Below are positions 1 through 59,630 of a DNA stretch of 64,000 bases, in pieces. Numbering within the stretch: the stretch's first letter is position 1; each line of letters starts with the position of its first letter. The DNA lies in assembly GCF_030686945.1 (NCBI RefSeq), contig NW_027122708.1, forward strand, positions 5,610,248-5,674,247, written 5' to 3'. Made by a program: the position numbers and the translations under genes. The notes beneath the pieces are model-generated. The model was not told the origin of the DNA, did no database searches, and saw only the letters and a program-made list of their open reading frames with translations. The DNA is from Centruroides vittatus (Eukaryota).

Positions 1-3000
1 AGGAGTTTTATTTTAGTATTAAAACTTTATTATCAATTTTAATGAAGTCACGAGTTATTGGAATTTTTGAAAAAGTTGATAGAAAGATAATAATAAATAC
101 TAAAATATTTATAATATCGATTTATCATGAAAAATTATCGATAAATGCAATGATTATTTAAATTAAAATTTTATCCAAAGATATTATTTAATTTCTTCCA
201 AATACATATTTACAGAGGAAAGTTATTAAATAGAGAATAAGCCAAAGTTGGTCTTGATTTATAGCAGATTTGCTGAAGCGCGCATAAATTTAATTTATCA
301 CTAGCCATTAGATAACAAATGTTTTATTCTTGTAACTTTGGTAACGAATTTCATTAATTTTGTTACGGGCATTCAACTTTTCCTTATTTGTAAATATATG
401 GTATTATGAATTCGAAATGATTGAAAGTTATTCAAATGGATCTCAAGGTCAGGGGTTCACTAAAACCTAACATGAACTGAATACTTATACTACTAGGTAT
501 ATACCAAACGTGGAAAAAACCCTCATTTGATGCAAACTTAATCTTTTTAGCGATTGGTTTGCGCATGATTTTCCGATATTTCCTCATTAATCATTGTCGT
601 GATAACAACTGTTCATTTTTCTTCAGTCAGTACGTTTTCCCATAAGATAACATGTGATAATGATTCTGTCTCGAACCTTTAAAGATTTACATAAAGATGA
701 TCAAAATTCTAATAGAGTAAATAGATCGAGAAGATGTTTGGTTGATTATAATTATAAAATTTCTTAAGGAACCATCGTCTTTACAATTCATTAAAGATGC
801 AAAACAGAATGATTATGATTGACTGTATATTTTAATAATTAAAATTTTAAAATATCTTTGGATTGTAATAGGCCTATATGCCTTATTTTTCCTGATTTTG
901 CCCTCTGTAATTTGATTATAGAGGACTTTGAAAAAATTACAAACCATTTTAAGTATTCTTTTTATGAAAACTGATACTTATATTAATAAAATGGATTGGG
1001 AAATGATTATATACTGTATATGTGTTTCGAGTGTAAGCTTTGCACACAGACTAATTTCATTTGTTACTTGTCTTGGTATTCGTATTTAAAAACTAATCTG
1101 TCGTAAAGGTCTCATATACTTATACACTCATTGAGAAAAAAGTTACGTAGCCAAATTGTTCGATTGCTGCAAAACTCGGCATACAGCTATGTCTTAGACA
1201 GGTATGTAAATGATTACGGTTGTGGTCCGATTGCGTGCAAAGTAATGTCTTCAGAGTGCCTTAAAATCGTTACCCTATATCCTGTAAAAAGGTTCACAGG
1301 AGTTTACTGTGTGTCAGAATTTTCAGTGTACCTATTGTTTGGAGATCTTTGGACGACAGATTCGAAGATACATTGAAAATTGGCTTGGGAAACAATCTCG
1401 TTTGACAGTCGATCACCTCTAGGAATAATGCGAAGGATATTGACAGAATAGTGATACGTTCAGGAAATCCTGCACCCTCCTATTTCCCGAACGTTGCCTT
1501 CCAAAATTTTCTTAAATTAAAGTTCAGACATTGCTGCTAATAAACATAATGCTCGGCCACTCACGGTACGGAGAGATGTCTCCGTCACGTTGCTCCCTTG
1601 GCCTGCCCGGTCGTCCATTGAGTATTTGTGGGACTTGTAGATGGAATGCCAGTTTCGATTGTCTACGAGTATGAGGTAGGCTATCTAGAGCGACTGTTGC
1701 AGCATCTACCGGAAAATCTGCCACAGGACAGCATATGGTGCCTGAATGTCTTCATGCCCGACCGTATTGTTGTATAGGCCTATATCCAAGAAAAAGGAGG
1801 CTTTACAAGGTACTAAAGGTTTGTTTAAATTGTATAATTATTGCGTAGAAAATTGTAATCACTTATTACCATCGTCAACGCATTCGCACTTATAAAGTTT
1901 CATTCGATTTCAACGCTCCCTTCTTGGTGCGTAACTTTTTTGTCAATGAATCTTTTTATTTTGTTCATCATTACTTCATTCTAATAAGGTTTTGTGCCAA
2001 ATGACAATAAATTAACTTTAAATGTATATACAATATTCAAATTGGGAAACAAATAATTTTATTAATATTAATTCGTTTTTGATTTATAGTAAAAGATTTT
2101 TATTTACAGTAGGCCTATATAATTATTAAAAAGAGTGTAACTGTAGTTTAAAATTCGATATAATAAAATATAAATTCGTGCGTAGGAAAATGATTATTAT
2201 TAATAAATCAACTTAAAAAAATAAATCTTTATAATGGTTATTACAAAATTTTCATCTATTTTATATTTTATAACGTAATGACTAAGAAGTAAAATGATAC
2301 ATGAAATGTTTGAAGAAATGTAACGTTTAGCCCTGATTTTTATCATAATTTTTCATCTTATTTATTTAAAGTTTAACTTTATTAAGTCAATTTATTAGAA
2401 TGATTTATTGCTTTAATTAAAAAGCTAACGAAATTGATACTTATAAAAAGTAGTTAAAATAAAAATAAAAATTTAATGATTGTAAAAGTAATGAGAACAA
2501 TGTGCACTTACGTCTAAATTAATAGTTACGGACACAAACCAGAATGAAAATAGACTAATGAGTTCTTTCGCGTTTTAAACAAGATTTGATAATAATTATA
2601 CGGAAGGTGTAATTTCTCCAGCATTAACCAATTAATATTTTATAAAATCAGAAGGCGGCAAATGTGACATTCCACTCATTTATCTCGTCGAGTGTCATTT
2701 TTGTCGTCGTTCAATATTCAACTACATATTGATAAAGTATTGGTCGACAGAGAGAGAGGGTTAAAATAGATACCTCATAAATCTCTCTATCTTGTCATTT
2801 GACAATGTCCCAAGGGGGACGACCAAACGTCTCTTAAAATCCCGATCACGTTATTCTGGTCAGCACGTCATCCTTTTGCTTGGTTTAATCATTATCTTTT
2901 AATTATCATAAATTCAAGGATTGGTGCGTGTCTCTCAGTTTAATTTTGATTGGCTTTTACGAAAATGTATCTAAATTTAACCAAATTGCCATAAAATCAA

Positions 3001-4594
3001 AATGTTCGCGATTTTATTCTCTTTTATTCTTATTTTACTGTTAAAATATTTAATTGATATGTAAAAATTAAACATTGTGTGCCAATATCATCGAATTTTT
3101 TCAAATTCACAGAATTTTTCGAAGTCCATTGCTGAAACCTTGAACGGTTATCTTTGTCCTTCTGTAGATAATTACAGGTTTGGCAAGAAGGACGTTCGTA
3201 AAATTTCAAAGAATGAAAATTAAAAAGATATAAAGCCTACTAACGACTTGTAGCGTTAAAATATTTTATCAAAGAATAGACAAAGCACGTAATATGATTT
3301 GTTATAGTATTGATTATCTCATTGAAGATATTCTAAATTCCAATAGAATTTGTGTGTGCTTAAACTAACATTCATTATATTAAAAATATTTTCGATAAGT
3401 TTATTTGGCCTGAACATTAATCAATAGCTGTTTGAGATTGTTAATACATCCAAATCTTTATTTACTATAAAAATTGTGTTATATATTAATTTATTTTTGA
3501 AAAAAAAAATTAATAATCTACAAATAAATATATCCACTTGTCAACAAATGTATGTAAAAACTACAAAAATGAACGATTTAATTGTCAATTACCATAATTG
3601 TCCGTAGAAAAAAGTAACCTAAAATTATTTACTAAGTAGGCTATATAATTTTATCATGACTTCAAAATATAATGAACACTATTTTTCAAAATGCCGTTAT
3701 TATATCTAGATAAGAGATGGCAGCACTTTAGTAAAGGTCTCAATTTTATCACCGATCTCTTTTCTCCAACGAGAGATAAGAGATTTTCTTGATAATTATC
3801 AAATTTCTGGAATTTGAGCATGGCAGAAAGGAGAACACAAGAACCATTACAGTGTTTAAGCTGTTGCATCAATAGAGTAATTAGTGAAGGTAATATTTCA
3901 ATGATAAGACCGACTCCGCCCGATTTCTCTAAAAGAGACACGTGATGGTTAGTTATCCCGCATCCATCTAGAATACAAATTGGCGATTAACTTGCCAGTT
4001 CTAAAGATCTGTAGACTTTGTTAAACAAACAGTGCAACCGACCAATGAATTATGTAGAATGGCATGGATTATATTTATATTTAAACTGCCAAATGGAATT
4101 ATATACACTTATTTTTAAATATTTGCTTCAATTGGCATCGTGTAATAAAATTAAATATTTGTTTATATTACATATGCTAAGCTAAACGAAGTCATTATTC
4201 TTGGCTTTTACGCCAATGACGACAACTGCTTATTACTGTAGATTATCACTGGCTGTTTATCATTTTCTAGTGCGCGATACATGAAAGATATGGCCACGAG
4301 CTATGTCTAAAACATCCTCTTCTAGTTCTCACATTATCTACTACTAGGATGATAATTTGACACACTTTAAGGAGCCAAGACTTTCATTTATTTATGGCCC
4401 GATGGCTCATAAGTAGTAGACATACATTCTACTACATAAATCGTTTTTAAAGCATGCCGAAATTTATGGAATCTTTGGATATTTGCCCAATAATATAGTA
4501 GAATTCGGCAAAAAAATTTTTTTTTAAAATAGAATCATAAATCTTAAATAATTTTCTATAAACGTTTTATCCACACCTGACTCTTTTACAACAC

Positions 4595-4644
4595 TAGCAA
4601 TTATTGTAATAATAATAATATTATTATTATTACAATAATTGCTA
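4595..4644. repeat. Perfect 50-bp AT-rich palindrome.
   Basis: tagcaattattgtaataataataat|attattattattacaataattgcta: the left half is the exact reverse complement of the right half, verified base by base. Confidence 0.9.
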
Positions 4645-5424
4645 ATGTGGTAGATGTATTAGCGTCGATAACGAACAAAGTGGATATTTCTGGAGTTTTT
4701 CTAGAAATTGTGTTGACTACTGGAAAAATTAATTGCGATTTGCCACAAAATTAATTTAGCCAACTTTGTAAATCATATTAAGTGGATTTACAATTCACTC
4801 ATTTCTCATGCCAGTCAGAGATTTATGACACTTCATTAAGTTGTAAAGCACGTGGCAGTAGACTACGTAAGCAAGGGTGGAGCACATTATGGTATACAAT
4901 CGTTAGATACGAGTCTTGGATTACAAATGTAGAAGGATAATTGACTAGGAATTATAAAAAGTGAAATTAATCTTTACGAGCATTTTGAATGATTTTTGGG
5001 TAATATTTCATCTTTGTTAAAGTTATAATAAATCTCTTGATATAACTTTTAAGTTCATAAGTTTTTATTATACGAACGTAATGTAATCTTAAGAAAGTTT
5101 TATATATAAACCAAAATGATTGAGATAGAGATAAAGTACCAATTATTTTTAATTTGTTTATGTCCAAGTTCTTAAATTATCTTATTAACTTTAAACAAAC
5201 TACTTCCTAATTATGAAAGAAAACCTCGTAAGTAAGCATCGAATTGAATTTTAAAATATTTTCTATATTTCATAAGATTACATATATGATATATACGTAA
5301 TAGATAATACATTATTTACAGCAGGCTCGTTATTGGAAAAAAGGCACGAGCTATAGGAAGAGTTTCGAATAAGAGAACAATCCTGGCTTTGTCTTCCAGT
5401 CCTTCATCTCGACAGTGCGTTTTT

Positions 5425-5436
5425 TATAGGCCTATA
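5425..5436. repeat. Example instance of the dispersed palindromic motif TATAGGCCTATA.
   Basis: Exact TAGGCCTA cores start at 869, 1775, 2110, 5427, 10788, 11760, 21930, 29622 and 56175. Near variants are at 3640, 10757, 15493, 44820, 47432 and 53163. Confidence 0.6.
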
Positions 5437-5514
5437 TAAAAATACGTTCGTAAGTTGTGCAGTTCACTATCTGTAATTATGGCAAATTTCTCGATCAATC
5501 AATAAATGACACGC

Positions 5515-5837
5515 TCATATATCGTTCTTTAAAGTTTTGCTGTGGTTTTGGAATTTCTTGCACTTGCAAGATCGGACGACTCTTATCTTGTATGTCCTTC
5601 GATCACCCGAACGACAGATCAAATGAACTCGCTTATGACGGACTAAATCATTAACGCATCGCCATTCGGAGGAACGTGTCCGACTCCTCCTGCTGACCAG
5701 TTCTGTGTACCATGGAAGTTCCGCCACTGGAAGGCATATTCCGGCGCACACTACTTCGGTTACAGGCTTGATAGAGGTACAATATCCGTCCGATATGTAT
5801 TTCTTCGAGCGCAACTCCTTACAACCAAGCTGCACAT
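5515..5837 (-). CDS. sostdc1-like: Terminal coding exon of a sclerostin/SOSTDC1-like protein (DAN-family cystine-knot, secreted BMP/Wnt antagonist type).
   Basis: Minus-strand ORF reads VQLGCKELRSKKYISDGYCTSIKPVTEVVCAGICLP...SSEWRCVND...RTYKIRVVRSCKCKKFQNHS. It has the cystine-knot spacing C..C..CxGxC..C..C..CxC. From memory it aligns closely with vertebrate SOSTDC1/SOST (CRELRS.KYISDG.CTS, EWRCVND, RTYKI.VV..CKCK). The exon is preceded on the minus strand by tttatttttcag, and the 2 nt (at) after the AG complete a phase-1 split codon before the GTG-Val codon at 5835-5833. Stop TGA is at 5517-5515. Confidence 0.8.
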
Positions 5838-5914
5838 CTGAAAAATAAATAAAATTATTAAATTTTTTCTCTCAGAAATCTTGGTAAAACACCTGAAGAA
5901 CATAGAATCCTTAC

Positions 5915-5998
5915 AGGTGCTAGGCACGGTGGCCAGACGATCGGTGCCAGCGGCCACTGACCTATTTCTCAGCAGCAGCTGGGACCGACTCGACACAC
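5915..5998 (-). CDS. Candidate 84-nt internal exon of the SOSTDC1-like gene. It encodes ..VSSRSQLLLRNRSVAAGTDRLATVPST(Y).
   Basis: Minus-strand acceptor ...ctcgctctgcag|GT (AG at 6000-5999) and donor |gtaagg (5914-5909). The 77-nt intron 5838-5914 then joins in phase to the terminal exon (t + at = Tyr). The peptide has weak RN....G.DR resemblance to the region just N-terminal of the knot in SOSTDC1. No Met and no signal peptide are present, so a further 5' exon is still missing. Confidence 0.35.
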
Positions 5999-8900
5999 CT
6001 GCAGAGCGAGTGGCAGGCCAATGTCAGGTGAGAGAAAACATCGAGAGTCACGTCAATGTATCACACTTCCAGTCACGCGTGGGCGTCACTTTCCTCTCTG
6101 ACAATGCACCGTCCATCGAGATTTTCTCCTAATCCCAGTTAGGAGGAAAGATTATCTTCGCCATCGACGATCACTCAAAAAATAATTGATAGATTTTAAT
6201 ATAAGTAATTGCTTTTCATAGTAGAAATTTCCGAAGTAAAATAATAATCGAAAAAGACGTTTTAATAACATAACAAGATGCGAAAATTTAAGTGACCTTT
6301 GGCATTTATTAATGTAGCCGATGTGTCTTCTTTATAATGTCCTTGGCGCTGATTTGTTGTTGCTCTCGGAGATGAAAATGCCATCGTCCTGCCTGATGTT
6401 CGTGTAAATCCAAATGCTTAAAGACAAGTTAAACAAACACGACGTCGAGTATTTTCGTTAATGCATCTCTATTACAAGCATTTTCTTTTTAAAAATAGCT
6501 TATTTTATTGTCGCAGCTTAAACCAAACTAATCTATAATCAGACAATTTAAATAAACTTTTGTTTTTTTAAATAAACAAATGTATTTAAAAAAATTAATC
6601 AAATAACATAGGCTCATTTCTGAATTATCTTCATACTGTTACAAATTTCGGTATACAGTAGTAAGAATAAATCTTATAAATATTTAAATGACTTAAATAT
6701 AAATCTATATTCTATATTACTGTATTTAGGTTAATTATTATATTATGCGAGTGTTGATACTGGCTGTTATGACTGTAACAAGAATAGTTTATATAAACAA
6801 AACTCTAAGTTCTAACAACCAAATTTGAATGTAGATTATTATTGGAAAGATAATACATTTTTCTATATTAACAGTAAAAAGGTAATAATGCAAATATTGA
6901 ATTTAAATTAAATTAACTCGAATAAAAAAAGGTAAATTTTTTTGCGAATAAATAATACAACTGTAATTCTTTTTTAACAGTAAAGCTCTAAAAATATCAT
7001 TAGACCTATTGGATTTCTTGAAAAATTAAATTTAAAATTATAATTTTTATACAATTCTTTTTAAGCAATGAGAGTATATTGGGTACACGTCAAGGATAAA
7101 AAGGTTTTGTTTCCTCGATGTCTGGAGTGAAGTTTGGAAACTTCAACTCTGGCACATTGCCGAAGAATTCAGCCAAATGTCACCTTATGATTGGCTGCAA
7201 CCGAGCTGTCTCTTTCCTTCCGTCCAGAATGAATCGCAATTAAAAATATGTAATTATTACATCACAGGAAAACAAGTACATGTATCGATCTTCAAGTTTT
7301 TAAGGAATCAAACACATATGAGCGAATGGATTGCTCGCGGCTAAGTTATTATTTTATAGGTAATCAAAATTTTTCATCGCCTTAAATACATTAGACTAAG
7401 TCTTATTACAATGGGAAAATGTATAAAGATTATTTACGAGGGTCATCGTCGTATGTTTTCCTGACAAGATCGCAATTCATTTCAATAGTATTCTCTGACA
7501 TCCGAGGAAAACTCCATAAAACGGACAAGGAAAATACGTGACACGTTCGGAGATAAAATCCAATAAATGCCATTCCGACTGATTTATACGAAAGACATAA
7601 ATAACTATCTCATAAAAAGAGGAATTTGCTCTAACGTAGCAGACTTTATTTAACAATTAACTGATTCGGTGTGTAGAGAAAAAATAACAAAAAAATAAAA
7701 ACTTCCGTTGAAGCTGCTTTTGTTTGCCATCTCATTAGAAAGAGCGTTTTACTTCACAAAATCAGTCAAATGCGTTTTATTTAATAGAGTTTTAAGGCAT
7801 AGCAACGGATCGAGAAGCAGTCACGAGTTGGATGAGTATTAATCCCCACAGCTTTGATGGATGAGAGAGATAGAGGAAAGGCGAGGTAGATTAATGATGA
7901 AACGATAGCATCTATAACGCAGCACCTGCATTCTGCCAGATATACAATGAATGAAATAAACTGATGTTGTTCTCTTAATACAACAAGGTGCCTGACTCAT
8001 GAAGAGAATAATTTATGAATACTTCTATCAGATCCACGATCCCTTCATAAATAAAGTCATGTTTAAATGTAAGTCGATCGACATTGGTATGAGAATTTTA
8101 ATGAGTCATTTTAATTAGTATCACATATATGTTATGAAGAGTCTAAAACGTTCGAGACGTTATTTACCACATAGGCATGATGTTACGAACTTTATACTGT
8201 AGCCTTGCTTAATTAACGCGTTAACAAACGTAACTAAAATGATATTTCTCCCCTCTCTTATAAATGATGTATTCCAGCCAAATTTATTGCATTATATAAT
8301 AAAAAAAAATTAATTAAAATATACTATTGTAAATGCTTAATCACGTTATCTTAGATCTTATATAATCTATCCATTTTGTTAAAATTGTTATATTGGTAAA
8401 GCGTTTTAAAGCAATAATTTCGATGATATTCGAATGAATTTAAGTCTACTTGAGTTAGACCACGTGATCGATAATTGTTATTGAAAGCATTAAATTTTAA
8501 CAGCTTAAGGCAGGAAGGAAAGCAAAGCAAAAGACCGCATTCGTCATCATTATGCGTCACCAATCGGATTTTTAGTGCACCCATCGAACTTCTTTGAAAA
8601 TATTATCATGTTTAATAAGCTACTGGGTGGATGCATAAGATGGATGAGTACAGCCAACAGAAAACGGATGTTTCTGTATCGACATTCTTAAATCGTTTAA
8701 TAAATGAATATTTAATAATTTTTTGAGGGTTAAATAAACATGAGTGTTTATTAACAGTCGACGCAACTTGAGTAATGAAAATATTTCCTTACTGATATAA
8801 ATTAAACACTGGGCTAATTCTAATCGTTAACTTTAACTGAATTTTTCATTATTTATTATTTTATAAATTAGACGAAAAAAGTCTTTATTACAATTGATTA

Positions 8901-11900
8901 TTTTTAATCTAATACAAGTTTTCTGAAATTTTAATCAACCTTTTTCATCATTCAAACCGATTTTGAAGCAAGTTCTTAATGGTAATCCAATCAGGTTTTG
9001 TCCTTTCACATCTCGTCAACTTCGTAAAGATGAGGGCCTCTTTCTTAAAGCCGAAAATCTCCGAGAAAACTCGGAGATAATTTAGATCGGCACGATATTT
9101 TTGATATAAGCAATGGATACTAAGATCTATAATCAATGGGAAGATGTCTCCAAGAATAAAGTCGTAATTTTAAACGAGGCGCTTGTAAATTTTGAATTTT
9201 ACCTCCCCCCCGTGTTGATTGTTGCCGCGCCGCTTTCTCGACAATAGAAAAGGTAACCTGTTTCTGGACATGACGGAGGATAGTTTCTATTGTTCCCCGT
9301 CTCTCAATTATGCTGCAGTATGAAACACGTGCCTCCATCCATTGCTGGAGGTATACAACATTTACAACGTCCTTGAGAGGCTCACTCACTGATTGGGTCT
9401 GTTTTTTTCACGGGGGACAGTGCGTGACAGGGAAACACTAGAAAGAGCCTCTTATCTCGTATTGATTTTTTGAAGGAATAATTGTATCTATAGCTTATAC
9501 GTATGAGCGCTTTTGATAGCATATAATTTGGCACATAAAATCAATATTTATAGGAAGAAGCCCAACTCATTAGAAGCTAATATTAGCTTCATTATGTAAG
9601 GGAAAAAAAGTTATAAATGATTAGTTAAATATTTTGAGGGGTTCCTAATAAAATTAGCAACTCAACGAATCGTGAAGTTAAACTGAAATATTTCTGCCGT
9701 GACGGAAAAAGACACATCATAATTTCCTAAACGAAATAGCATTCAGGCAATATGCCCAATCTCGTTTATTGCTTAACACGGTTGCAAATGCGGTGTTAAT
9801 GTAAATTATACTGTTTTGAAAACAGTCAAACGAGTAGGCTAATATATCAGTATTATGTTTAGTAAATATAATTAAATATTAAATAGGAAAAATAATTGGA
9901 AAAAGTATCTCACCTTTCATGTTGTTAGTTGTTATATAGTAGTCATTCTCGAGAAAATATGCCGTCGAATTGGAAAAGTTGTGCATCAAGCGCAGATGAG
10001 TGGATCTGGACGGTTGTTTGAAGGCTTTGCTGAGCAGACAACCCAATTCGACGAGGAAGACCACTACAACGGACCATCTCAAACTAGACGAACCCATCAT
10101 CGTCTGTCTGGAGGCCAAATCTTCCGGCTAAACCTGTCTATTTATGTACCGAATGGAATAAGACATTTGGCAAACAATTCTCTCGCTCTCGTCCCCTCAC
10201 TCACTACACATCTACATCCGACGTCGAACCTACTTCCAACGGGCCAACCAATCGCAGTCCGCCTGTCATTCATATAGTGTTGTCGGGCAATCACGTGATC
10301 CGCGTTGTTTTATCGAGTCTCGAGCCTACAAATTTGACGTCATCCACATTACAAGTAACATATATTCTAATTATTTTATATATGTGAAAGCTTTTAAACG
10401 TGTTATTCTTCTATTAGCGCGCTGTCGTCATATATTATTTTTAAAAAATAAATAAGTAAACAATAAATATAAGTAACCTAATTAAGTAAATTTATTTTCC
10501 TTTTCACCAAAATCGAATAAAACTTCTACGAAATTTTGACCAGAATAAATGTTCTTTTTTAAATAGAATTTTAAAATAATTAACCTCAGTAAATAACAAA
10601 ATATAAATAAATAATTTATATAATAAAAATGTTTTAATTAAAACGTTTGTCAGTAAATAAAATGTCGCTCATATTATACGATACATTAAGCAAATAATAT
10701 CTTTATTGTATATAACTTACTATATATACATTATAATGTATTTATATTTTATATACTGTAGGCCTTTATATGTGGTCTTAAATACATTAGGCCTACTTAC
10801 TTTTCTGTCAGACTGTAGTATTTAAAAATATTACTTTTTTAAAAAATCAGTTTTAATATTTATTATGGTTATTTGTACGCCAGTTGCGCTAAAAAGAATT
10901 CCCCTAATACAAGATTTGAATCCAATCAGATAGTATTTGGTGGGTAATCCGGATCAGGGTGCATTCCTTTGCTCACCCACGATGGCCAACCAATTGCGAG
11001 TCGGATCCGGAATTAAACCTAAAATCTCATATTACTCGTTGCTGCTAGTGAAATAGTTTGTAATGCTAATGCCGTATTATAATAATTCTATTACAATTCG
11101 TTTATTTTATAAATTTTAATGATATAACTTATATCTGAATTCTACCCAATCTCTTCTGAAAAGAAAAGGCCATTTTAATCTTTTGTTGTAATTGTTAATC
11201 GTGAATAAAGTCCGGTTTTCTATTGGCTGTTTTCTCTTTTGTCCGTATAATTCCAGCAAAATATCAATCATGAGCGATTTGTTCCAAACTAAACTTTTGT
11301 GTGGAAGGTCTTCTAGCTTAATTAATCTTAACATCTTGCCAAATTTAAACTAGAAAAGCGAGTAACGCTAATTTACCGAGATACAATAGCATTACATGGC
11401 AAAGGGAAACTATTAATCAACGTAAGATACTAGGCAACGTCACCGTGCCAAGGCCTTCTACTCGAGATGATCTAAAATTCATGATATTGTGAAAGATTTC
11501 CATATTTTTAACCACAAAAATAACAGGAATTTTTCATTTTTCTCTCATTAACAGTCGCCAAACAATTAAATTTTTCAGTTAATTTAATACATTGCACCAT
11601 TATCCTTATCTGTTAATTAAGATTAATTGGGATGCTGATAGTTTTATGTGTCGAGCTTACATACATAAATAATCTAATCTTACTCATATTATATTATTAT
11701 TATTTAAATTTTCCGATAATAGCTCTTGTTTCGGCTCCTTTAAAATTTTGATAATGACGTAGGCCTAAATATATAAACATCTAACGCTAGTAATTTTATC
11801 TCTTAATTTTTTTTTGGTAGTGATGACTTTCGCTTCTAATTAAAAACACATTAGGATTGGTATAAAACCAAATTAGAAAAGAAAAAAAAGTTTAATTTTT

Positions 11901-12169
11901 GAAAATTTTATCGCTTTGATTATATACGAGGACTGTAAAATATAAATGAGTCGATAAAATTTGTTAATGATTTTACGTAGGCAACTCTTAAATATGATAA
12001 TGATTGTATGAGCGCGAGGATGAATTTTTCCTTATCATTTTAATGCTAATAAATTAAAACAGCGAGTTTATTTATAGTAACGATTACAAATTTATTAATA
12101 AATTGACGATTATAAATCAAATAATAGGCATTAGTCTGTAAAATAATTGTAAATTATTTCCTGGTTATC

Positions 12170-12470
12170 AGTTTTACATAAAATTCTTCCCGACTCTTTT
12201 TCTCTTCCAATTCTTCCGCCCTGTGTCCACTAAGAAGGCCTCTTTTACATACCCATCGTGGACTCGAGGGCCTTTTATTATGCACCCAGGCCAAAAATGG
12301 AGACAGCCGAGTAGTGAGGAGTGGGGCCCGACATATCCGGAGCTTATCTCCACTTATCTCCTGTAAAAAATTCCTGGGTGTTTCCAGCTCGCTCGGATTC
12401 GATTCCGGATCCCCAGAGTGGTAGGCTGGTGTCTTAACCACCTCTTGATTCAAAGATGTCAAGAAAGTGA
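12170..12470 (-). mobile_element. tRNA-derived SINE (family A).
   Basis: The minus-strand reading starts GAGGTGGTTAAGACACCAGCCTACCACTCTGGGGATCCGGAATCGAATCCGAGCGAGCTGG (tRNA-like, GGTTAAG and GAATCGAATCC boxes). A body follows containing ...AATAAAAGGCCCTCGAGTCCA...CTTAGTGGACACAGGG. The 102-aa ORF 12154-12462 lies entirely inside this element. Confidence 0.55.
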
Positions 12471-15400
12471 TTCGGACACATTAAAATACTTCTACCCAAT
12501 CTACAGAAATTTATATCTTCGAAATTCCATTTTTACGGCAAATAAAACGGGTTGAGTAATTTTGTACGTATGACTAAAGAATAATCGGGAAATTTAAATC
12601 AAATTTGAAATGATTCATAGCCGTTCTATCCCTGACCCGAAGGCCTAAATAAGTTGCAGAGGATCAACAAGTCAATAGCAAACAGCTTCTAGGTTAAACT
12701 TAAATATCAATTGGAACTAACGGGGGATCTTGTCATTTAATTCGTAGATAGTTTAACGAACTGGCTTATGCTCTGTTTATTACACAAATAATTATTCTTT
12801 AAGTTATTACTTAAAGCGAAATACGCTATTAATCGTAGAAAGATTTCCAATATTACGACACGAAATGATTTGTAACTTGTTCCATTTATCGCTGTTAGCT
12901 TAATTTTGAAATTTTTAACAAAGTAGAACAATAGAAGAATGTTTTATGCTGTAGAATAAATATGAAGATAGGTTAAGCGAGTAATCTTTGTATCGCAGAG
13001 GAAGTAGATTACTCACGTATACATGGATATGTATATGTGTCTATGTACTGTACACCTATGTATATGTATCACGTATGCACTCACGTATCCATGTATATGT
13101 AAATATCTGAAACGAGAAAAATAGTTAAACATGCCATAAATTTGTCACAGATATTTATTTGCACCGATGAACGTTTAATATTCAATGTTTGACTTGGGCA
13201 TAAACACTTTCTGAATCGTAAATTATTCGCTTTGTTGCTATGCAATTCAATCTCGGAAAAACTGGCCAACAGACAAATAAGATCAGAATGCAAAACAGAA
13301 ATTTATATTTAAACTTTGCAAATATAACTTATATATACATATATTTCTTTTCTTTTCTCGTAAATATGGTGCGAGCGCATCTCATAATAGAGTTTTGTTC
13401 TAGATAATAGAATGCTTAAGATGCTCATCACAAAAATTAGGAGTTATTCATTGAATTATTTGACAATTAATGCCCACAAAGAAAAATATACACTGTGTAT
13501 ATACATTTTTACAGTATGTCTATATCATTATACTGTTTTACTGTTACTTGATAAAACTAGATCGAAATCGAATATTTTTTTAAATAAAAAAGTATTATTA
13601 TATATATTAAAAATAAATATTAGATATAATATAAAAAATACAGTATATATTTAATCGATTAATTAAGTGCTTAAAATATTCTAATATTCTGGAATGAATC
13701 TTCGATCGTTATCAAACTAGTGAATTAAACATGTCAAGAATTTATATTTAAGATTATTTTCTTCTAAATATTATAAATTCTTGGGATTTTTTTATTATTA
13801 TTATAAATTGAATTCTTGTGTTATTACGTTAAGATTAAACGAATTGCGAATAATTTATAATGAAATTTTTGATCTAAAAAATATATTTTTGTAAAAGGTA
13901 TTGAGACAGAGATCATTGAGCTTAATGAAATAAATTATTCTACTTTGATACATCCCGATGGGATTTTACTTGAAAATAACGAGTTGCCATTAAATTTATT
14001 TGGAATGTTGAGGGAATATTTTTGTAGATTTGTTGAATTGTATGCAAAATATAACAACACACAAAATAATAATATCTCAATTGTTTGTTAATATAAAATC
14101 TGATATTTTCATCACTTTGGACTTTTGATAACCCAATTTATTCACTTCACTTATTCAAACGGTATTCAATAACAGATTATTAAAAGGAACAATGCACCAT
14201 AGAATCTAAATGTAGTCCTAAGCTATTATTTTATAGGAAAACTATCAAGAAATCAATAGCACATTACTTATTTATAAATATCAAATTATCAATTGAATCG
14301 ATGAAATTTATCGTTTTTACATTTTACTTTATTTTTAACTTAGCATTTTTAATAGGTTTGTTATTGAGAGAAAAAGATAGATCTTGTTATAAATTCCCTT
14401 GATCTATCTTAATTAAATTCTTTCACTGCCTTTATTCTTTGTCTAGAAAGGAAAACAGATTAGAAATGCACTATTATGTCAGCTCTTGCAATATCTAGTC
14501 TCCCATTTCTCTATAATTTAGTAGTAAATTAAAATTAAAAAGGAGGCAGTGTCTGTGGAAGTAGCCGAATAAGAAATAGACAGACAGAGATCATTGAGCT
14601 TAATGCAATAAATTATTCTACTTTGATACATCCTGATGAGATTTTACTTGAAAATAACGAGTTGCCATTAAATTTATTTGGAAATAAACTTTCTGGGTTT
14701 GAGCCTGTGGTAAAAATCGCATTCTCTTTGTTCATTTCTTTCATTGGGATTTATTCTATTGGATAATTACTCGTTTATCGTCTACCTATTTTTATTGCTG
14801 ACATAAACCGTGGAATTCTTTATCGTATGATTGATAGCATATGCATTAACTGTCAATTACTCAAACGGAATTACAGTTCTTTGCATACGTTTTTACTTTT
14901 GTCCCTTTGCAATGACAGATAATTGTCATTAAGGATTTACATTTAACAGAAGCCGAAAACGCTCAAATTTTTTTATCACCATTAAGGAATAATGTTACTA
15001 ATAGTTGGAACTGAAAAACAGTTGAAAATTTAATTTACGTTTGACGTCATTTTCTAATTTTACTTATCATTCGGCAACGAAGACGGGCGAAAAGAATCAG
15101 TAATAAAATTTTCGTTTATAATAAATACAGCGTGATGTCATAGGAAACGATTACCACTTTTTATGAATAGTTTTTTCGTTATTTTGCTGATCTAAAGGCA
15201 TTTATTTTGAAAAGGTTGAAAGTTGTTTCGCTTTCGATATCATCTAGTAATGCTCCACTGAAGTTAATCAATATAAAAAGCAATTTTCTCTTAAATTACA
15301 AAATAAATAAACATATATGTACAGCGTACTTGCAAGTTCGACGTAATTAAAATACGAGTTTTTTAATGGTTTCTACACTAAATTTGATTAAAACGTTGAA

Positions 15401-18400
15401 ATATTCGTAAAACATACCTTCTTATTTGCCTTCTGAATTATAATATATATAATTTCAGACACAATAACTTTTAATATATTATGTTTTTGAAGTAGGCCTG
15501 TAGATATTTAAAACAATTTATCAATTAAAAGTTTCCTGTCATTCAACCAAGGCAATGCATTATGTCTTACTATATCCTGAATTTTTTGAAAAGGTAAAAT
15601 TAAATTTTAAAACTAACCGTTTTCTGCTTGAATTTTTTATCTTAATAGTCCTACACGCAATTTATTAATTAAAGATATAAAATTGTACGCTTTGAAGAAA
15701 TTCGGGAAAGTACTGTACAGTAGTAAGACGTATTCTCACGGCTGAATTAAATGATAAAACATAAATAAAGTAAATATATCGTTTCCGAACTCTTAAATTT
15801 ATATACGTTTATTGAACTCAAAAATTCTGTAATATATTCAAACGTAAGCATATTTATGAAGATAAAAGACAACAAATAGATAGGCGTGTATACAGGCGGT
15901 TATTTGTAGTAAATTGTTATTCTAGTTCTGAATAAATAAACTTTATCTGGAACTGTAATCTATAACAAATCATTTCAATGTTAAGAAAAATTCCTGGAGT
16001 ACCTCCAATCACGGAGTAACACTCAATGGGAGGTAAAATTTTAACGAGCAAGCGGACCTCAACTCGTTCGGCTTTCCCGCTTACCTTGAATAAAAATACA
16101 ACTTTGCCAGTCAGGATAGTGGAAAATTTTTATCGATTCGTTTTAATTGTTAAACTCCCAAGCTATAAAACACTACAAAATGATGAAAAACACATTCTTT
16201 TAGGATGTCCTCGGAGTGTAGCATAAATTTACACACTTTGGATAAAGTACAAAATGGTCTAAAAGGCTAGTTTCTATTGAAAAAATGTGTTATTTATCGT
16301 CACGTATATTACCAATTACTGTTTTTCTTTCCGAAATAATAAAAGAATTAAATACAAAGAGGTAAACCGTCGAAAGGTCAAATCATGCTTTAAAAGTAGA
16401 TACTGCATCCGGTTGACGATAGTAACTGGAATAAGGCCGTCTAGCATCGGAGGTCGGAACCCCCCATTCAGGGTAAGGCCAGTGATCCATCATGTGACTG
16501 ACTGATAGACGTTACTGCGAACTTATCGTCATCTTCATCTCCTACGGATAGATGTTCCTACTGTTTGGTATACATAGAATGTGTAGATGAGATGCGAGAT
16601 TGACGTTGAAGGCAATCTTCATTAAATAGTTTTAATCAATGATTTTTTTTTTAAATTTATTTATCAATCTAGAAATGAAGTATTTTTGTGGGTAAATAAC
16701 TTGCGAGACAGGTTAAACAAAGGAATGTAGAGTGGCCCGCGAAAGCATTAAATAGTTTAAAACGGAACACGAGCTTAAATGACTAATCGTTTTGGCAGTT
16801 TTCACGAGATTATTAGACAAAAATCATGGGAATAAAGCGCATGTGGGCAGAATTACACTCGATACATCATGAAGCATGTGTTAAGTGGTTAATGAATGAC
16901 AAATATAAATATTAAACAGCTTGGGATATAACATTTGATTGACGCAAATTAAACATTTTAGTAAATCATTTCATTAATATATTAATGTTAACGAGATGAT
17001 TTATTTTGTCTAAAGCTTTCTAATTACGCGCCTACTTTATTAACATTCGGGATCCTAAATTCTGCTTGTTTAATTAAAAAATAATCGATTTAATTTCATA
17101 ATGATTTATGCTCGTTTCACATATCTATTATATTTTATGCCGCATCTTTTAAATAAACCCACTTAGCTTTCGTTAATGCTTACTGGCCTATTACGAAAAG
17201 AACTTTTCGCATAAACTATAATCACGTGACTGAAATGATTGCATCTTTCTCATTTAATCATGGCCGAAGGTAAATCGAGAGTATCATAAAAATATTTTTT
17301 TCTCGGTGCTTTCAGCATCCGGCTAAAAACGAAACAAATAACAATAGCTACAAAGCGGTGTCGAATGATTTGTTCTGGAGCATTTTCGCGGTAATTATAT
17401 GAATTTACGGCCGGAGATCTCAATCAGACGATGTAAGCATTTCTAAGGAGGACCGAAAAAAGCCGATGACGATCAATTTCGGTACATTTCTTATCAAAAT
17501 TTGGGTTCCAATCTGTTAAGGTGAGCAAAAAACTGTGCTTATCGTTGACAGTTGAATGTAACCGACACAAAGTATTACCTCATTTGGAGATTCTTTTGGT
17601 AGTTTTTATAGTCGATAGCTAGCTAAAGGCATTTCTATAGATAGAGCATCTACAAAGCATCCGCTAGAGGCTATTTCATCTCAAATTTCTATCGGGATCC
17701 TGCTTAATGTCACGAATTGTTAATCTACAAATACGATCTTGCTGGTATTCCGTGCATAAATTGTCAAATATTTGTTTGCAAATATTGTATCGGAATGGAT
17801 ACAAAAAATAAGTAGAATAAAATTCTTTCCATTTATATTTTTCACTTATAACGTGCGTGTTATATACCGTATAATACGCACGTTTTCCCGAAAAATACTG
17901 TCTGAAAATGGGGTACGTCTTATATGCCAATAGTAAGAATTGATTATTGTTTATAAATATACGCTAGTTAAATAGTTAAATTAATTATAGCATATACAAT
18001 ACGCTATAATTAATTTAAATGTATAAATTTGCATTAATGAAACTTTTTAATGTTAATTTTTTGTTACGAAAGACGAAGTGTAACTGATAGCATTAACAAT
18101 AGGAAACAAATTAATATGAACGGTATTAAAATCTATAAATCAACATATAATTAAGCTGATAATTTATTATTAAGAGTGAATAGCCTCATTTTTTAATAAT
18201 AATATTATTATTTATAAATTATCAGAAGGTAGTTTAATAATATTTATAATTTCGTCAGCTGGGTGCTAATAGATGAATGGATCAAATACTTTTTAGAATA
18301 AAGTAAGTAGTTCAGTGAGTTTCATTTCATGAAAACAGAAATTTGATTGATTAATATTATACTTATTTTAAAATTAACTTTGGAAATGAGGAAACGATGG

Positions 18401-52300: not shown

Positions 52301-53524
52301 TTCCAAAATAAGGCTTTTGCCTGTTATAATAATTATATATATATATATATAATATATAGAAAAATAAAAAAGCCATGCCAGGAAAGTCGTGCAAGAGCCC
52401 TTAATCTTTTAAATTAATAATTATAGTAATAAAAAAAAATAAAGTTTCAACTTATTAAAACATCATAGTGGATAATGGAACACTTTTTTCCATTATTTAA
52501 TTTAAAAATAATGGAATCTGATAATAATATTCAAAATGTAGGGATGAAATCGATTTCAAATTATCTCTGGGAGTAGTATGGTAATTTTAAGCTACGATTT
52601 CAAAATACCTCCTCAAAGAACTTATCATTTGTACCGGTACGTTCCATCAGAATAAAACATGGAGCGAATACATGTAAAATTCCGATCAATCAGCCCGCTT
52701 TTTCAGCCAGATTCTGATTGGAACTTGAGATTATGCCATATTGAGGACAATTATTGTCTCATCCATATTGGATAATGTCACTTTGTTTCATAATGTCTGC
52801 TCCAGTGTTGTAGAATACAAGGCCGTCGAGAGGGGAAGCGGGGATTTTTCTCCGGACTCTGAAAAAACTTAGGGGTCCATAGTGGCTCTTACCCCGTAAA
52901 TTAATATTATTTTTGATTAAAAAATATAATTGTTTAAGACTGATTTTTATTAATAAAGGAACTTTCTACATATTCGTTTAATTTGTTCAAAAAAGATATA
53001 ATAAAAAGGACCCGCTTTATCCCGTGGCCTGGTAGAGCATTAAACCCTGGTAAGATGATCCACCTCGAAACCTGGGACACTGAGAGATTAAGTTTTATTA
53101 TGGCAATAATCCTTAACAGATGGATTTACGTATACAATACATATGTAAATGACAATAAGTAGGGCCTAATTGGAGTGTGCCATGTAATACAATTAAAATT
53201 TTTGTGACTTTTTTATTTTTCAAGAGTTGAGGCTAGCTTTCAATATTGTGTTTCATTCAATACAGTTTTATTCAATAAAACGTACCACGAGTTGTAAGTA
53301 TAAAAGAAAAAAAAATTATCATTTTAGCTAAATCGGGAAGAACAACGCTCAGGATTTATTTGAAGACCGGGGTTTAATCAACGAAATTTGTATCTACTGA
53401 AGGCTTCGATTTATTATTTACAGCGATTAAACTCTCGGATTTCACGTTTCTTTATTTAACAAATTCTAAAATTTTAATAGTAGACTATAAATTTTTCTTA
53501 TTTTTAAATCTAAAACACGCTTTG

Positions 53525-58938: not shown

Positions 58939-59057
58939 TCGACGATTTTATTTTTTTATTTTATTTCGTTTTCTTCGTTTTTATTATTTTTTAATTATTT
59001 TTAATTATTCTTAATCATTAATTTCAATTAAATTAAATTAACACGGTGAAGAAGGAG

Positions 59058-59630
59058 TTAATAATACAAATTGATGTTGATGTGTTCAGATAATAAATTA
59101 ATTTCAAAATAATGACGCCTTCCTTCTTGATGTCTTCCACTTTCTCTGCGTTCACTCTCTCTCTCTTCACGTTCTCTGTGTTCACTCTCTCTCTCTTCAC
59201 GTTCCCTGCGTTCATTCTCTCTCTCTTCACGTTCCCTGCGTGCATTCTCTCTCTCTTCACGTTCTCTGTGTTCATTCTCTCTCTCTTCACGTTCCCTGCG
59301 TTCATTCTCTCTCTCTTCACGTTCTCTGTGTTCATTCTCTCTCTCTTCACGTTCCCTGCGTTCACTCTCTCTCTCGTCACGTTCTCTGTGTTCATTTTCT
59401 CTCTCTTCACGTTCTCTGCGTTCACGCTCTCTTTGATTTTGATTATTTTCTCTTATCGTTCTTCTAATTTCTGCTTCTTCTTCTCTTTCTCTAATACGCC
59501 TTAATCGCATTCTTTCTCGATTCTTTCGTAGGCGTTCTTCTCTTTTTTGTTGTGTTTCGTTAGCACGCCTTTCTCGTTGTTTCACTCTATTTATTTCCCT
59601 TTCTCTTTCTCTTTTTTCTAAGATGTCCAT
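59058..59630 (-). CDS. Candidate Arg/Glu-rich repeat-protein ORF (190 aa). Its C-terminal half is encoded by the 30-bp minisatellite.
   Basis: ATG at 59630-59628 sits in an aaaaATGG context. The unique N-terminal 65 aa (MDILEKREREREINRVKQRERRANETQQKREERLRKNRERMRLRRIRE...) are already RE-rich before the tandem repeats begin. The RE-rich coding potential therefore extends beyond the repeats. Further RE/RD-rich ORF pieces continue downstream on the same strand (58938-58741). Confidence 0.35.
   Translation of the reverse strand: MDILEKREREREINRVKQRERRANETQQKREERLRKNRERMRLRRIREREEEAEIRRTIRENNQNQRERERREREERENEHRERDERESERREREERENEHREREERENERREREERENEHREREERENARREREERENERREREERESEHREREERESERRESGRHQEGRRHYFEINLLSEHININLYY
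59131..59440. repeat. 30-bp minisatellite, about 10 units (ttcactctctctctcttcacgttctctgtg and variants).
   Basis: A direct tandem periodicity of 30 nt is read off the sequence from 59151 onward, with unit variants ttcattctct.../gttccctgcg. On the minus strand every unit encodes a 10-aa E/R-rich repeat (REREERENEH type). Confidence 0.95.

What the first reader, a model, noticed from the sequence alone, without database searches (positions are those of the whole stretch)
5515..5998. Vertebrate-like SOSTDC1/sclerostin cystine-knot gene in an AT-rich invertebrate-type genome, with a conserved intron position
**Seen in sequence.** The minus-strand exon encodes an almost textbook DAN-family knot: CKELRSKKYISDGYCTSIKPVTEVVCAGICLP ... 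SSEWRCVND ... RTYKIRVVRSCKCKK. Compared with vertebrate SOSTDC1 as I recall it (VQVGCRELRSTKYISDGQCTSISPLKELVCAGECLP ... SQEWRCVND ... RTYKITVVTACKCKR), this is on the order of 55-60% identity across the domain. That is surprisingly high for a genome that is otherwise AT-rich, SINE-laden and single-exon-GPCR-bearing, i.e. invertebrate in style. The exon starts in phase 1 only 5 residues before the first knot cysteine. I recall SOST/SOSTDC1 exon 2 starting in a similar position.

**Inference.** A plausible 84-nt upstream exon (5915-5998) fits in phase. The signal-peptide exon is not found within the obvious flank.

**Why it matters.** Sclerostin-domain proteins are Wnt/BMP antagonists. Their presence and strong conservation outside vertebrates bears on the ancestry of the SOST/SOSTDC1 lineage.
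Basis: partly seen in the sequence, partly recalled or inferred. Interest (0 to 1): 0.7.

Follow-up and report, generated by a model that had tools for sequence, protein, structure and literature searches.

The report
Scorpion sclerostin-family gene, already annotated
The window holds an intact two-exon sclerostin/SOSTDC1-family gene of a Centruroides scorpion that is already annotated in RefSeq, and the family is already known across bilaterian animals, so the finding is real but ordinary.

Summary
Minus-strand exon 5837-5515 encodes a sclerostin-type cystine knot (Pfam Sclerostin 112-116 bits against DAN 44-47). It is 53% identical to gecko SOSTDC1 and 43% to human SOST.

The product is 100% identical to RefSeq XP_023230822.1, "sclerostin domain-containing protein 1-like" of Centruroides sculpturatus. 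The missing signal-peptide exon lies at 10100-9914, across a 4,076-nt phase-1 intron.

It is absent from the RefSeq model and from a spliced-transcript contig of a related scorpion, which joins exon 1 directly to exon 2.

The intron position is conserved: phase 1, 5-6 codons before the first knot cysteine (9 in Priapulus), in gecko SOSTDC1, amphioxus, Saccoglossus, Lingula, Priapulus and both scorpion paralogues.

The gene is under purifying selection (8 synonymous and 0 non-synonymous differences; dN/dS 0.07).

Family members are already annotated in echinoderms, hemichordates, amphioxus, brachiopods, molluscs, annelids, priapulids, a horseshoe crab and a millipede, and are discussed in papers. 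So it is not novel.

One by-product: the LRP5/6-binding NXI motif of vertebrate SOST/SOSTDC1 is absent from all 102 other family members retrieved. These carry mostly LPWYA, with variants (LPWYT in this scorpion).

The parts
10101..10218 (-). 5' UTR (minimum extent)
   Evidence: Related-scorpion transcript-like contig L009, nt 1-122, aligns to window 10218-10101 upstream of the ATG. GC 0.49 and 99% identical to C. sculpturatus.
9914..10100 (-). Exon 1 coding part (187 nt): Met1 to Lys62 plus the first base of Asp63. Holds the predicted signal peptide (about residues 1-26, window about 10100-10023) and two N-glycosylation sequons (NFS, NST).
   Evidence: tblastn of P0001 residues 1-62 at 100% identity. 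Donor AAAG|GTGAGA. AlphaFold helix 7-26 over the hydrophobic stretch.
5838..9913 (-). Single intron, 4,076 nt, phase 1, GT...AG
   Evidence: Exact reconstruction of the 169-aa protein from the two exons. The same phase and near-identical position occur in 6 other family genes from 5 phyla.
5515..5837 (-). Exon 2 coding part (323 nt including the stop TGA at 5517-5515): the whole cystine-knot domain with 8 conserved cysteines (C68, C82, C93, C97, C123, C137, C153, C155) and a short C-terminal tail
5704..5712 (-). Codons Trp105-Tyr106-Thr107 in loop 2, at the position of the vertebrate Asn-x-Ile (NXI) LRP5/6-binding tripeptide
   Evidence: Alignments. The motif's role is described in PMC5008011.
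5262..5514 (-). 3' UTR (minimum extent)
   Evidence: L009 nt 751-888 aligns to window 5396-5262 at 70% identity.
5911..6144 (-). NOT part of the mature transcript on present evidence.
   Evidence: GC 0.51-0.63 against 0.31 for the intron. In frame with plausible splice sites. Absent from the RefSeq model and from L009. The 234-nt perfect match to C. sculpturatus is only the 5th longest such run in 20 kb.

Best explanation
Window 10218-5262 (minus strand) is the complete, functional, two-exon gene for a secreted sclerostin/SOSTDC1-family cystine-knot protein of a Centruroides scorpion.

Shown:
- Exon 1 gives a hydrophobic N-terminal leader and a short glycosylatable linker.
- Exon 2 gives the whole knot domain, with 8 cysteines and two beta-hairpin fingers flanking a flexible loop 2.
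- The product equals RefSeq XP_023230822.1.
- The gene descends vertically from a single bilaterian gene. It is a pro-orthologue of vertebrate SOST plus SOSTDC1, not a member of the SOSTDC1 clade itself.
- It keeps the ancestral phase-1 intron.

Inferred mechanism: the protein is secreted and acts extracellularly as a stoichiometric binder and antagonist in morphogen signalling. The likely targets are BMP-type ligands (Dpp/Gbb orthologues) and/or the Wnt co-receptor LRP5/6 (Arrow), as vertebrate SOSTDC1/Wise does.

Loop 2 lacks the Asn-x-Ile tripeptide that vertebrate SOST/SOSTDC1 insert into the first LRP5/6 propeller. It carries the LPWY motif shared by most invertebrate members instead. Any LRP5/6 interaction must therefore use another contact, and BMP antagonism or another partner is at least as likely.
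For: - Family: Pfam Sclerostin 112-116 bits (cut-off 27) against DAN 44-47. PDB sequence hits are sclerostin only. The AlphaFold model has pLDDT 93-97 in the fingers, and its top three Foldseek PDB hits are sclerostin 2k8p and 6l6r chains C and D, TM 0.71.
- Identity and gene model: 100% match to XP_023230822.1. Both exons are found at 100% identity with canonical GT-AG sites.
- Transcript support: contig L009 (SRR3984642, 1,128 bp, uninterrupted 169-aa CDS) maps to exon 1 and exon 2 directly abutted, plus UTRs. A second such contig, L002, shows the same VKD|VQLGC junction.
- Function retained: 8 synonymous and 0 non-synonymous differences against C. sculpturatus (P about 6e-6). dN/dS is 0.07 against the related scorpion.
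- Vertical descent: 20 kb is collinear with scaffold KZ494450.1 of C. sculpturatus. The nearest relatives are arthropod-group sequences. The vertebrate SOSTDC1 clade has 100% bootstrap and excludes it.
- Conserved intron.
- NXI present in 20 of 20 vertebrate-type members and 0 of 102 others. Role of NXI: PMC5008011.
Against: - No RNA-seq from this species was examined. The transcript evidence is from relatives whose species I could not identify.
- No signal-peptide predictor was available.
- No binding or signalling data exist for any arthropod member, so the mechanism is inferred by homology only.
- The loss of NXI weakens the Wnt/LRP6 part of that inference.
- The distance tree lacked SOST and outgroup DAN proteins, and its internal bootstraps are low (0.11-0.64).
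Confidence: 0.88

Rival explanations
1. The gene has three coding exons. The 84-nt segment 5915-5998 is a constitutive or alternative cassette exon between the signal-peptide exon and the knot exon.
For: - The segment is open in the required phase and its length is a multiple of 3.
- It has an AG acceptor after a pyrimidine-rich run and a GTAAGG donor.
- It is GC-rich (0.63) like the exons and identical in C. sculpturatus.
- Some relatives are annotated with isoforms (Tachypleus X2, Octopus X1, Saccoglossus X1).
Against: - It is absent from the RefSeq model and from transcript-like contigs L009 and L002.
- Inclusion would turn the K-D-V junction, shared with most arthropod-group relatives (G in the paralogue), into T-Y-V and insert 28 residues with no counterpart in any homologue.
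- The perfect conservation is not exceptional, since 4 longer perfect runs lie in non-coding DNA.
- An open 28-codon frame in GC-rich DNA is expected about a quarter of the time.
- No cluster member or homologue carries the insertion.
Confidence: 0.06
2. The exon is a dead or processed fragment (pseudogene) of a sclerostin-like gene.
For: The surrounding DNA is repeat- and AT-rich.
Against: - A complete ORF with signal-peptide exon, canonical splice sites and an intron (so not processed) is present.
- 8 synonymous and 0 non-synonymous substitutions; dN/dS 0.07.
- Transcript-like contigs exist in relatives.
- All 8 cysteines are intact.
Confidence: 0.02
3. The contig or exon is vertebrate contamination or a recent horizontal acquisition from a vertebrate.
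Against: - The gene sits in 20 kb collinear with a 693-kb C. sculpturatus scaffold.
- The closest proteins are arthropod-group and other invertebrate sequences at 61-78%, against 49-57% for vertebrates.
- It lacks the vertebrate-specific PNxI loop and has the invertebrate LPWY loop.
- It falls outside the 100%-supported vertebrate clade.
- A paralogue with the same intron lies on another scorpion scaffold.
Confidence: 0.01
4. It belongs to another DAN/CTCK subfamily (gremlin, NBL1, cerberus/DAND5, norrin, VWF-CTCK) and only resembles SOSTDC1 superficially.
For: The Pfam DAN and Cys_knot models also score above their cut-offs. Foldseek also lists VWF-CTCK, Grem2, PRDC and norrin.
Against: - The Sclerostin model scores about 70 bits higher than DAN.
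- The only PDB sequence hits are sclerostin.
- Structural E-values are 1e-6 to 1e-7 for sclerostin against 2e-3 or worse for the rest.
- The family-specific intron position is shared.
Confidence: 0.01

Closest known systems
RefSeq XP_023230822.1, sclerostin domain-containing protein 1-like [Centruroides sculpturatus] (scaffold KZ494450.1, assembly GCA_000671375.2)
   Same: Protein 100% identical over all 169 residues. Same two exons and the same splice sites.
   Different: The window DNA differs from that scaffold at about 5.7% of aligned columns, and dS is 0.075 in the CDS. The window therefore comes from another assembly, haplotype or sister species of Centruroides.
Vertebrate SOSTDC1 (Wise/USAG-1/ectodin)
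   Same: - Same Pfam family.
- 53% identity over the knot, with 8 cysteines in register.
- Phase-1 intron one codon away from the scorpion position.
- N-terminal signal peptide with a similar ...A|FK... context (by eye).
- CKCK(K/R)(F/Y)xxxN-x-S end of the knot.
   Different: - Loop 2 is 3 residues shorter and lacks the LPNWI (NXI) LRP5/6-binding motif.
- The C-terminal basic tail is almost absent: 13 residues after CKCKK, against about 45.
- The scorpion gene is outside the vertebrate SOSTDC1 clade, so it predates the SOST/SOSTDC1 duplication (PMC3861057 for the duplication).
Vertebrate sclerostin (SOST; PDB 2K8P, 2KD3, 6L6R)
   Same: - Best structural and PDB-sequence match.
- Same 4-disulfide pattern.
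- Two-exon gene (PMC8878747).
- From my own knowledge, not verified here: the human exon boundary at c.220 is phase 1, in the Asp codon of ETK|DVSEYSC.
   Different: Only 43% identity. The scorpion protein has no PNAIG motif and lacks the long disordered N- and C-terminal arms of SOST.
Invertebrate sclerostin-family genes already described: Saccoglossus kowalevskii WISE/sclerostin (GU076111.1; PMC5786327), Lingula anatina sclerostin and spiralian orthologues (PMC13121700), amphioxus SOSTDC1 (bioRxiv 10.1101/794404)
   Same: - 52-67% identity in the alignment.
- Same phase-1 intron.
- Same LPW/F/D-Y loop-2 motif without NXI.
- Same two-part architecture.
   Different: The scorpion protein has a much shorter C-terminal tail. 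It also exists as two paralogues (P0001, P0003). I found no paper on chelicerate or other arthropod members.

Membership tests
Sclerostin/SOSTDC1 family (Pfam PF05463) | Scores above the curated gathering threshold of the family HMM and better than sister DAN/CTCK models | tested here: met
   Whole protein scores 116.5 bits (cut-off 27), against DAN 46.8 and Cys_knot 26.4. Exon 2 alone scores 112.4 bits.
Sclerostin/SOSTDC1 family (Pfam PF05463) | Eight cysteines in the conserved spacing (three knot disulfides plus one finger-tip disulfide) | tested here: met
   C68, C82, C93, C97, C123, C137, C153 and C155 are invariant across 38 family members. They are in register with the SOST cysteines.
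Sclerostin/SOSTDC1 family (Pfam PF05463) | Three-loop cystine-knot fold: two beta-hairpin fingers and a flexible loop 2 | tested here: met
   AlphaFold strands 69-94 and 119-159 have pLDDT 93-97, and loop 2 has pLDDT 54-59. Foldseek top hits are sclerostin 2k8p (E 9e-8) and 6l6r_C (TM 0.71).
Sclerostin/SOSTDC1 family (Pfam PF05463) | Secreted: N-terminal signal peptide | tested here: inconclusive
   Residues 9-24, WSVVVVFLVELGCLLS, form a hydrophobic core after Arg8. They are predicted as helix 7-26. An ...KA|FK... context resembles the vertebrate ...LA|FK... site. No dedicated signal-peptide predictor was available.
Sclerostin/SOSTDC1 family (Pfam PF05463) | Gene structure: a phase-1 intron a few codons upstream of the first knot cysteine, with the knot on one exon | tested here: met
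   Phase 1 in all seven genes. Distance to the first knot cysteine: scorpion 5 codons, paralogue 5, Gekko SOSTDC1 6, Lingula 6, Branchiostoma 6, Saccoglossus 6, Priapulus 9.
Vertebrate SOSTDC1 orthology group (as opposed to the pre-duplication SOST/SOSTDC1 lineage) | Falls inside the SOSTDC1 clade, after the vertebrate SOST/SOSTDC1 duplication | tested here: not met
   In an NJ tree on 96 knot columns, vertebrate SOSTDC1 is monophyletic in 100 of 100 bootstraps and excludes the scorpion genes. These group with millipede and horseshoe-crab sequences. SOST itself was not in the tree, so formal pro-orthology to both remains inferred.
LRP5/6 E1-propeller-binding Wnt antagonists (SOST, SOSTDC1/Wise, DKK1 N-terminal peptide) | Asn-x-Ile (NXI) tripeptide at the tip of loop 2, required for binding the first LRP6 propeller (PMC5008011) | tested here: not met
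   The scorpion reads LPWYT where vertebrates read LPNWI or LPNAI. PNxI occurs in 20 of 20 vertebrate-type members and 0 of 102 others.
LRP5/6 E1-propeller-binding Wnt antagonists (SOST, SOSTDC1/Wise, DKK1 N-terminal peptide) | Binds LRP5/6 (Arrow) and inhibits canonical Wnt signalling | not testable with these tools
   Needs binding and reporter assays.
DAN-family BMP antagonists (PF03045) | Scores above the DAN-domain gathering threshold (superfamily membership) | tested here: met
   46.8 bits against a cut-off of 22.
DAN-family BMP antagonists (PF03045) | Binds BMP ligands and blocks receptor engagement | not testable with these tools
   Needs SPR or co-immunoprecipitation with Dpp/Gbb or BMP2/4/7, plus BRE reporter assays.

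The most novel reading that the evidence does not exclude
The LRP5/6-binding NXI motif, and with it the sclerostin-type mechanism of Wnt antagonism, is a vertebrate innovation grafted onto an ancient bilaterian protein. The ancestral, strongly conserved loop-2 motif (LPWYAE[F/Y]xKVW; LPWYTELVSRR in this scorpion) would serve a different and still unidentified partner. Arthropods that kept the gene (chelicerates, myriapods) would then offer a system for finding the ancestral function. The evidence here is purely sequence-based: 0 of 102 non-vertebrate-type members have PNxI, against 20 of 20 vertebrate-type members. I could not establish whether this has already been noted in the literature.
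Probability: 0.35. Interest if true: 0.45.

Novelty: already known. Interest (0 to 1): 0.15.

Why it matters
It matters little as a discovery. Sclerostin-family genes are already annotated in echinoderms, hemichordates, cephalochordates, brachiopods, molluscs, annelids, priapulids and non-insect arthropods, and some are cloned or catalogued in papers. So the family's pre-vertebrate ancestry is not an open question.

What this check adds:
- A corrected gene model for the window: two exons, signal-peptide exon found, 84-nt exon rejected.
- A direct demonstration that the phase-1 intron is conserved across Bilateria.
- The observation that the vertebrate LRP5/6-binding NXI motif is missing from every non-vertebrate member sampled. 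This cautions against transferring the "Wnt antagonist via LRP5/6" annotation to invertebrate members.

Tried and rejected
1. Conservation as evidence for the 84-nt exon. The block 5911-6144 is 100% identical to C. sculpturatus, against about 95-96% for the intron, which at first looked significant. The differences between the two assemblies are strongly clustered, and four longer perfect runs (239-353 nt) lie in non-coding DNA. I rejected it as uninformative.
2. The plus-strand 83-aa ORF 5881-6132 over the same island has no Pfam family.
3. Rfam at gathering thresholds on the whole window gave 0 matches, so there is no known ncRNA in the intron.
4. A blastn search for copies of the island in the window and in the paralogue locus found only a 32-nt weak match. 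It is not a repeat and is not shared with the paralogue.
5. A literature search for the exact human SOST exon boundary (c.220+3A>T) found no paper with that string. PMC8878747 confirms only "two-exon gene" and IVS1+3A>T. I replaced this with a direct mapping of the Gekko SOSTDC1 intron.
6. A literature search for sclerostin in spiders, scorpions and other chelicerates returned nothing relevant.
7. My first dN/dS run used an exon-2 start one base off (5838) and gave nonsense. It is corrected.
8. Contamination, pseudogene and other-DAN-subfamily readings were all rejected (see rival explanations).

Full report
**1. The observation**

The minus strand of 5835-5515 is an open frame reading VQLGCKELRSKKYISDGYCTSIKPVTEVVCAGICLPVAELPWYTELVSRRSRTRSSEWRCVNDLVRHKRVHLICRSGDRRTYKIRVVRSCKCKKFQNHSKTLKNDI*, preceded by tttttcag.

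- It matches Pfam Sclerostin (PF05463) at 112.4 bits, E 3e-32. The generic DAN domain scores 44.3 bits and Cys_knot 28.3.
- Its only significant matches among PDB sequences are three sclerostin entries, E 7.5e-19 to 3e-17.
- The window is AT-rich throughout, with GC 0.24-0.36.

Measured identity is 53% (59/111) to Gekko SOSTDC1 and 43% (40/94) to the human SOST knot.

**2. Whose gene it is**

The exon product is 100% identical to a 169-aa protein that NCBI names [quoted passage not shown], accession XP_023230822.1. That protein is encoded on the 693-kb scaffold KZ494450.1 of assembly GCA_000671375.2.

Window positions 4-19992 are collinear with that scaffold at about 94% DNA identity, differing at 5.7% of aligned columns. 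Within the CDS there are 8 synonymous and 0 non-synonymous differences, with dS 0.075. The window is therefore from a different assembly, haplotype or sister species of the scorpion genus Centruroides. It is not a vertebrate contaminant.

**3. The gene model**

tblastn places residues 1-62 at 10100-9915 at 100% identity.

- The sequence shows ATG at 10100 and the donor AAAG|GTGAGA after 9914.
- The acceptor TTTTTCAG| lies before 5837.
- Joining 10100-9914 (187 nt) to 5837-5515 (323 nt) reproduces the 169-aa protein exactly.
- The intron is 4,076 nt, phase 1, and splits Asp63, five codons before the first knot cysteine C68.

Exon 1 encodes a hydrophobic leader (MMGSSSLRWSVVVVFLVELGCLLSKA|FK...), which the AlphaFold model predicts as helix 7-26. 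It also encodes a short linker with two N-glycosylation sequons. No dedicated signal-peptide predictor was available.

**4. Transcript and selection evidence**

The 90%-identity cluster of the protein contains two Logan-assembly members. One of them, P0122 (169 aa, 19 residue differences), is encoded without interruption on a 1,128-bp contig of run SRR3984642. That contig aligns to the window as follows:

| Contig L009 | Window | Feature |
|---|---|---|
| nt 1-312 | 10218-9911 | 5'UTR and exon 1 |
| nt 308-632 | 5839-5515 | exon 2 |
| nt 751-888 | 5396-5262 | 3'UTR |

It is thus a spliced mRNA of a related scorpion with exon 1 joined directly to exon 2. A more distant homologue, P0002 (78% identical over the knot), also lies uninterrupted on a 1,080-bp contig and shows the same ...VKD|VQLGC... 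junction. dN/dS between the window and L009 is 0.07 overall, 0.05 for the knot exon. The gene is expressed in relatives and under strong purifying selection, so it is not a dead fragment.

**5. The proposed 84-nt exon (5915-5998)**

Points in its favour:
- It is in phase and open.
- It is flanked by a usable AG and a GTAAGG donor.
- It is GC-rich, 0.63.
- It is identical in C. sculpturatus.

Points against:
- That identity is not informative. The perfect run 5911-6144 (234 nt) is only the fifth longest in the 20-kb alignment, and runs of 353, 312, 272 and 239 nt lie in non-coding DNA.
- The segment is absent from the RefSeq model and from both transcript-like contigs.
- No homologue or cluster member carries a corresponding 28-residue insertion.
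- Inclusion would replace the Asp that precedes VQLGC in this gene and in most arthropod-group relatives (Gly in the paralogue) with Tyr.

I reject it as a constitutive exon. A rare alternative isoform cannot be excluded without RNA-seq from this species (about 6%).

**6. Intron conservation**

I fetched genomic loci for six other family members and solved their first coding junction by exact reconstruction. All have a phase-1 GT-AG intron just upstream of the knot:

| Gene | Codons before first knot Cys |
|---|---|
| Scorpion paralogue | 5 |
| Gekko SOSTDC1 | 6 |
| Lingula sclerostin | 6 |
| Branchiostoma SOSTDC1-like | 6 |
| Saccoglossus sclerostin | 6 |
| Priapulus | 9 |

For human SOST, the tools confirmed only that it is a two-exon gene with a known IVS1+3 splice mutation (PMC8878747). 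That the boundary is at c.220, which would be phase 1 in the Asp codon of ETK|DVSEYSC, is my own recollection.

**7. Family membership and fold**

- The full protein scores 116.5 bits on Pfam Sclerostin.
- The eight cysteines are invariant over 38 members from many phyla.
- An AlphaFold model built on that alignment is confident in the two beta-fingers (pLDDT 93-97) and weak in loop 2 and the exon-1 linker.
- Its best PDB matches are sclerostin 2k8p (E 9e-8) and 6l6r chains C and D (TM 0.71 normalised to the target). VWF-CTCK, Grem2, PRDC and norrin follow at E of 2e-3 or worse.

**8. Distribution and what is known**

A profile search found 292 proteins at E of 1e-5 or better. Among the best 120, named members come from the following groups:
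- crinoids, a brittle star, sea urchin, starfish and a sea cucumber;
- hemichordates (Saccoglossus "sclerostin", Glandiceps);
- amphioxus ("SOSTDC1");
- Lingula ("sclerostin"), many molluscs and Capitella;
- Priapulus (two genes);
- the horseshoe crab Tachypleus, the millipede Chamberlinius, and Centruroides (two genes);
- vertebrate SOSTDC1.

In the literature:
- Darras et al. 2018 cloned WISE/sclerostin from Saccoglossus and showed its expression (PMC5786327).
- The 2026 Lingula genome paper lists sclerostin among the three DAN-family genes of spiralians (PMC13121700).
- Opazo et al. found an amphioxus SOSTDC1 (bioRxiv 10.1101/794404).
- Collette et al. attribute SOST and SOSTDC1 to an ancestral genome duplication (PMC3861057).

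An NJ tree of 96 knot columns broadly follows the species tree. The scorpion genes group with millipede and horseshoe-crab sequences. Vertebrate SOSTDC1 is monophyletic in 100% of bootstraps, but internal supports are otherwise low. The scorpion gene is best described as a pro-orthologue of SOST plus SOSTDC1, and the name "SOSTDC1-like" simply reflects that SOSTDC1 is the more conservative vertebrate copy. I found no paper on chelicerate members, but the gene itself is in RefSeq. Novelty is therefore "already known".

**9. How it probably works**

Shown:
- A hydrophobic N-terminal leader consistent with a signal peptide.
- A sclerostin fold.
- Strong purifying selection.

Inferred by homology: a secreted extracellular binder that antagonises morphogen signalling.

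Vertebrate SOST and SOSTDC1 inhibit Wnt signalling by inserting an Asn-x-Ile tripeptide at the tip of loop 2 into the first propeller of LRP5/6 (PMC5008011). In the scorpion protein that position reads LPWYT. Across all 122 family sequences in hand, PNxI occurs in 20 that are named vertebrate SOSTDC1 or have a loop identical to vertebrate SOSTDC1. It occurs in none of the other 102, which read mostly WYA, WWA, WYT or WYS. The scorpion C-terminal tail is also very short.

The vertebrate LRP5/6-E1 binding mode is therefore unlikely here. BMP-ligand antagonism (the general DAN-family activity, retained by SOSTDC1) or another partner for the conserved LPWY loop is at least as likely. None of this can be tested with sequence tools.

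**10. Verdict**

This is a real, intact, expressed-type sclerostin-family gene of a scorpion.

- Corrections: two exons (10100-9914 and 5837-5515), not the 84-nt exon.
- The intron-position claim is confirmed.
- Interest is low. The only mildly novel by-product is the restriction of the NXI motif to vertebrate-type sequences.

Noticed in passing
window 53522-55444 (+): A 640-aa single-exon ORF is a rhodopsin-family GPCR (Pfam 7tm_1, E 2e-56). It has a DRY-type motif (IDRYCSV), an NPxxY-type motif (NPFCY) and a very long third intracellular loop, so it looks like an aminergic or muscarinic-type receptor. The subtype was not determined.
   Followed up: partly
window 36478-37769 (both strands): A 346-aa coiled-coil ORF (36729-37769, +) has no Pfam family above cut-off. 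It partly overlaps an antisense 152-aa ORF, in the locally most GC-rich 2-kb bin (0.357). It may be a retroelement ORF1-like remnant.
   Followed up: partly
window 59033-59630: Overlapping ORFs on both strands translate to short periodic repeats (RERE.../NVKRERMN...), which indicates a tandem-repeat tract. The 58-60 kb bin has strongly negative GC and AT skew.
   Followed up: no
window 5911-6144 (intron of the sclerostin-like gene): A unique GC-rich island (GC 0.51-0.63 against 0.31 for the intron) lies 74 nt upstream of exon 2 and contains a CRE-like TGACGTGA. It is perfectly identical to C. sculpturatus, not repeated in the window and absent from the paralogue's intron. It could be an intronic regulatory element, but the conservation is not statistically exceptional.
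   Followed up: yes
window 4-19992 vs L001 (C. sculpturatus KZ494450.1): The window differs from the i5k C. sculpturatus assembly at about 5.7% of aligned columns, in strongly clustered differences and indels. dS is 0.075 in the CDS. This suggests a different Centruroides species, population or haplotype rather than the same assembly.
   Followed up: partly
L003 8001-20437 (C. sculpturatus KZ494151.1): A second scorpion paralogue (P0003, 138 aa, 73% identical over the knot) has the same phase-1 intron, here 12 kb long. It lies about 5 kb downstream of a Patched/sterol-sensing-domain gene. Its loop 2 reads LFRYT. Whether the pair dates from the proposed arachnopulmonate genome duplication is unresolved, as bootstraps are low.
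   Followed up: partly
alignment of 122 family proteins (loop 2; window codons 5712-5704): The LRP5/6-binding PNxI motif is confined to vertebrate-type sequences (20 of 20) and absent from all 102 others. The others share LPW(Y/W)(A/T/S), followed in many members by E(F/Y)xKVW. Amphioxus has LPDYA and Saccoglossus LPFYS.
   Followed up: yes
named hits: Among the best 120 of 292 family hits, the named arthropods are only chelicerates (Centruroides, Tachypleus) and a millipede (Chamberlinius). No insect or crustacean name appears, which hints at loss in Pancrustacea. Hits 121-292 were not seen.
   Followed up: no
L009 about 909-1127 (3' end of the related-scorpion transcript contig): The 3' end of the transcript-like contig contains a tRNA-like stretch (...GAATTGAACCTGGACC...) with a called 72-aa gene on the opposite strand. 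It may be a tRNA-derived SINE in the 3'UTR or an assembly join. It does not align to the window.
   Followed up: no
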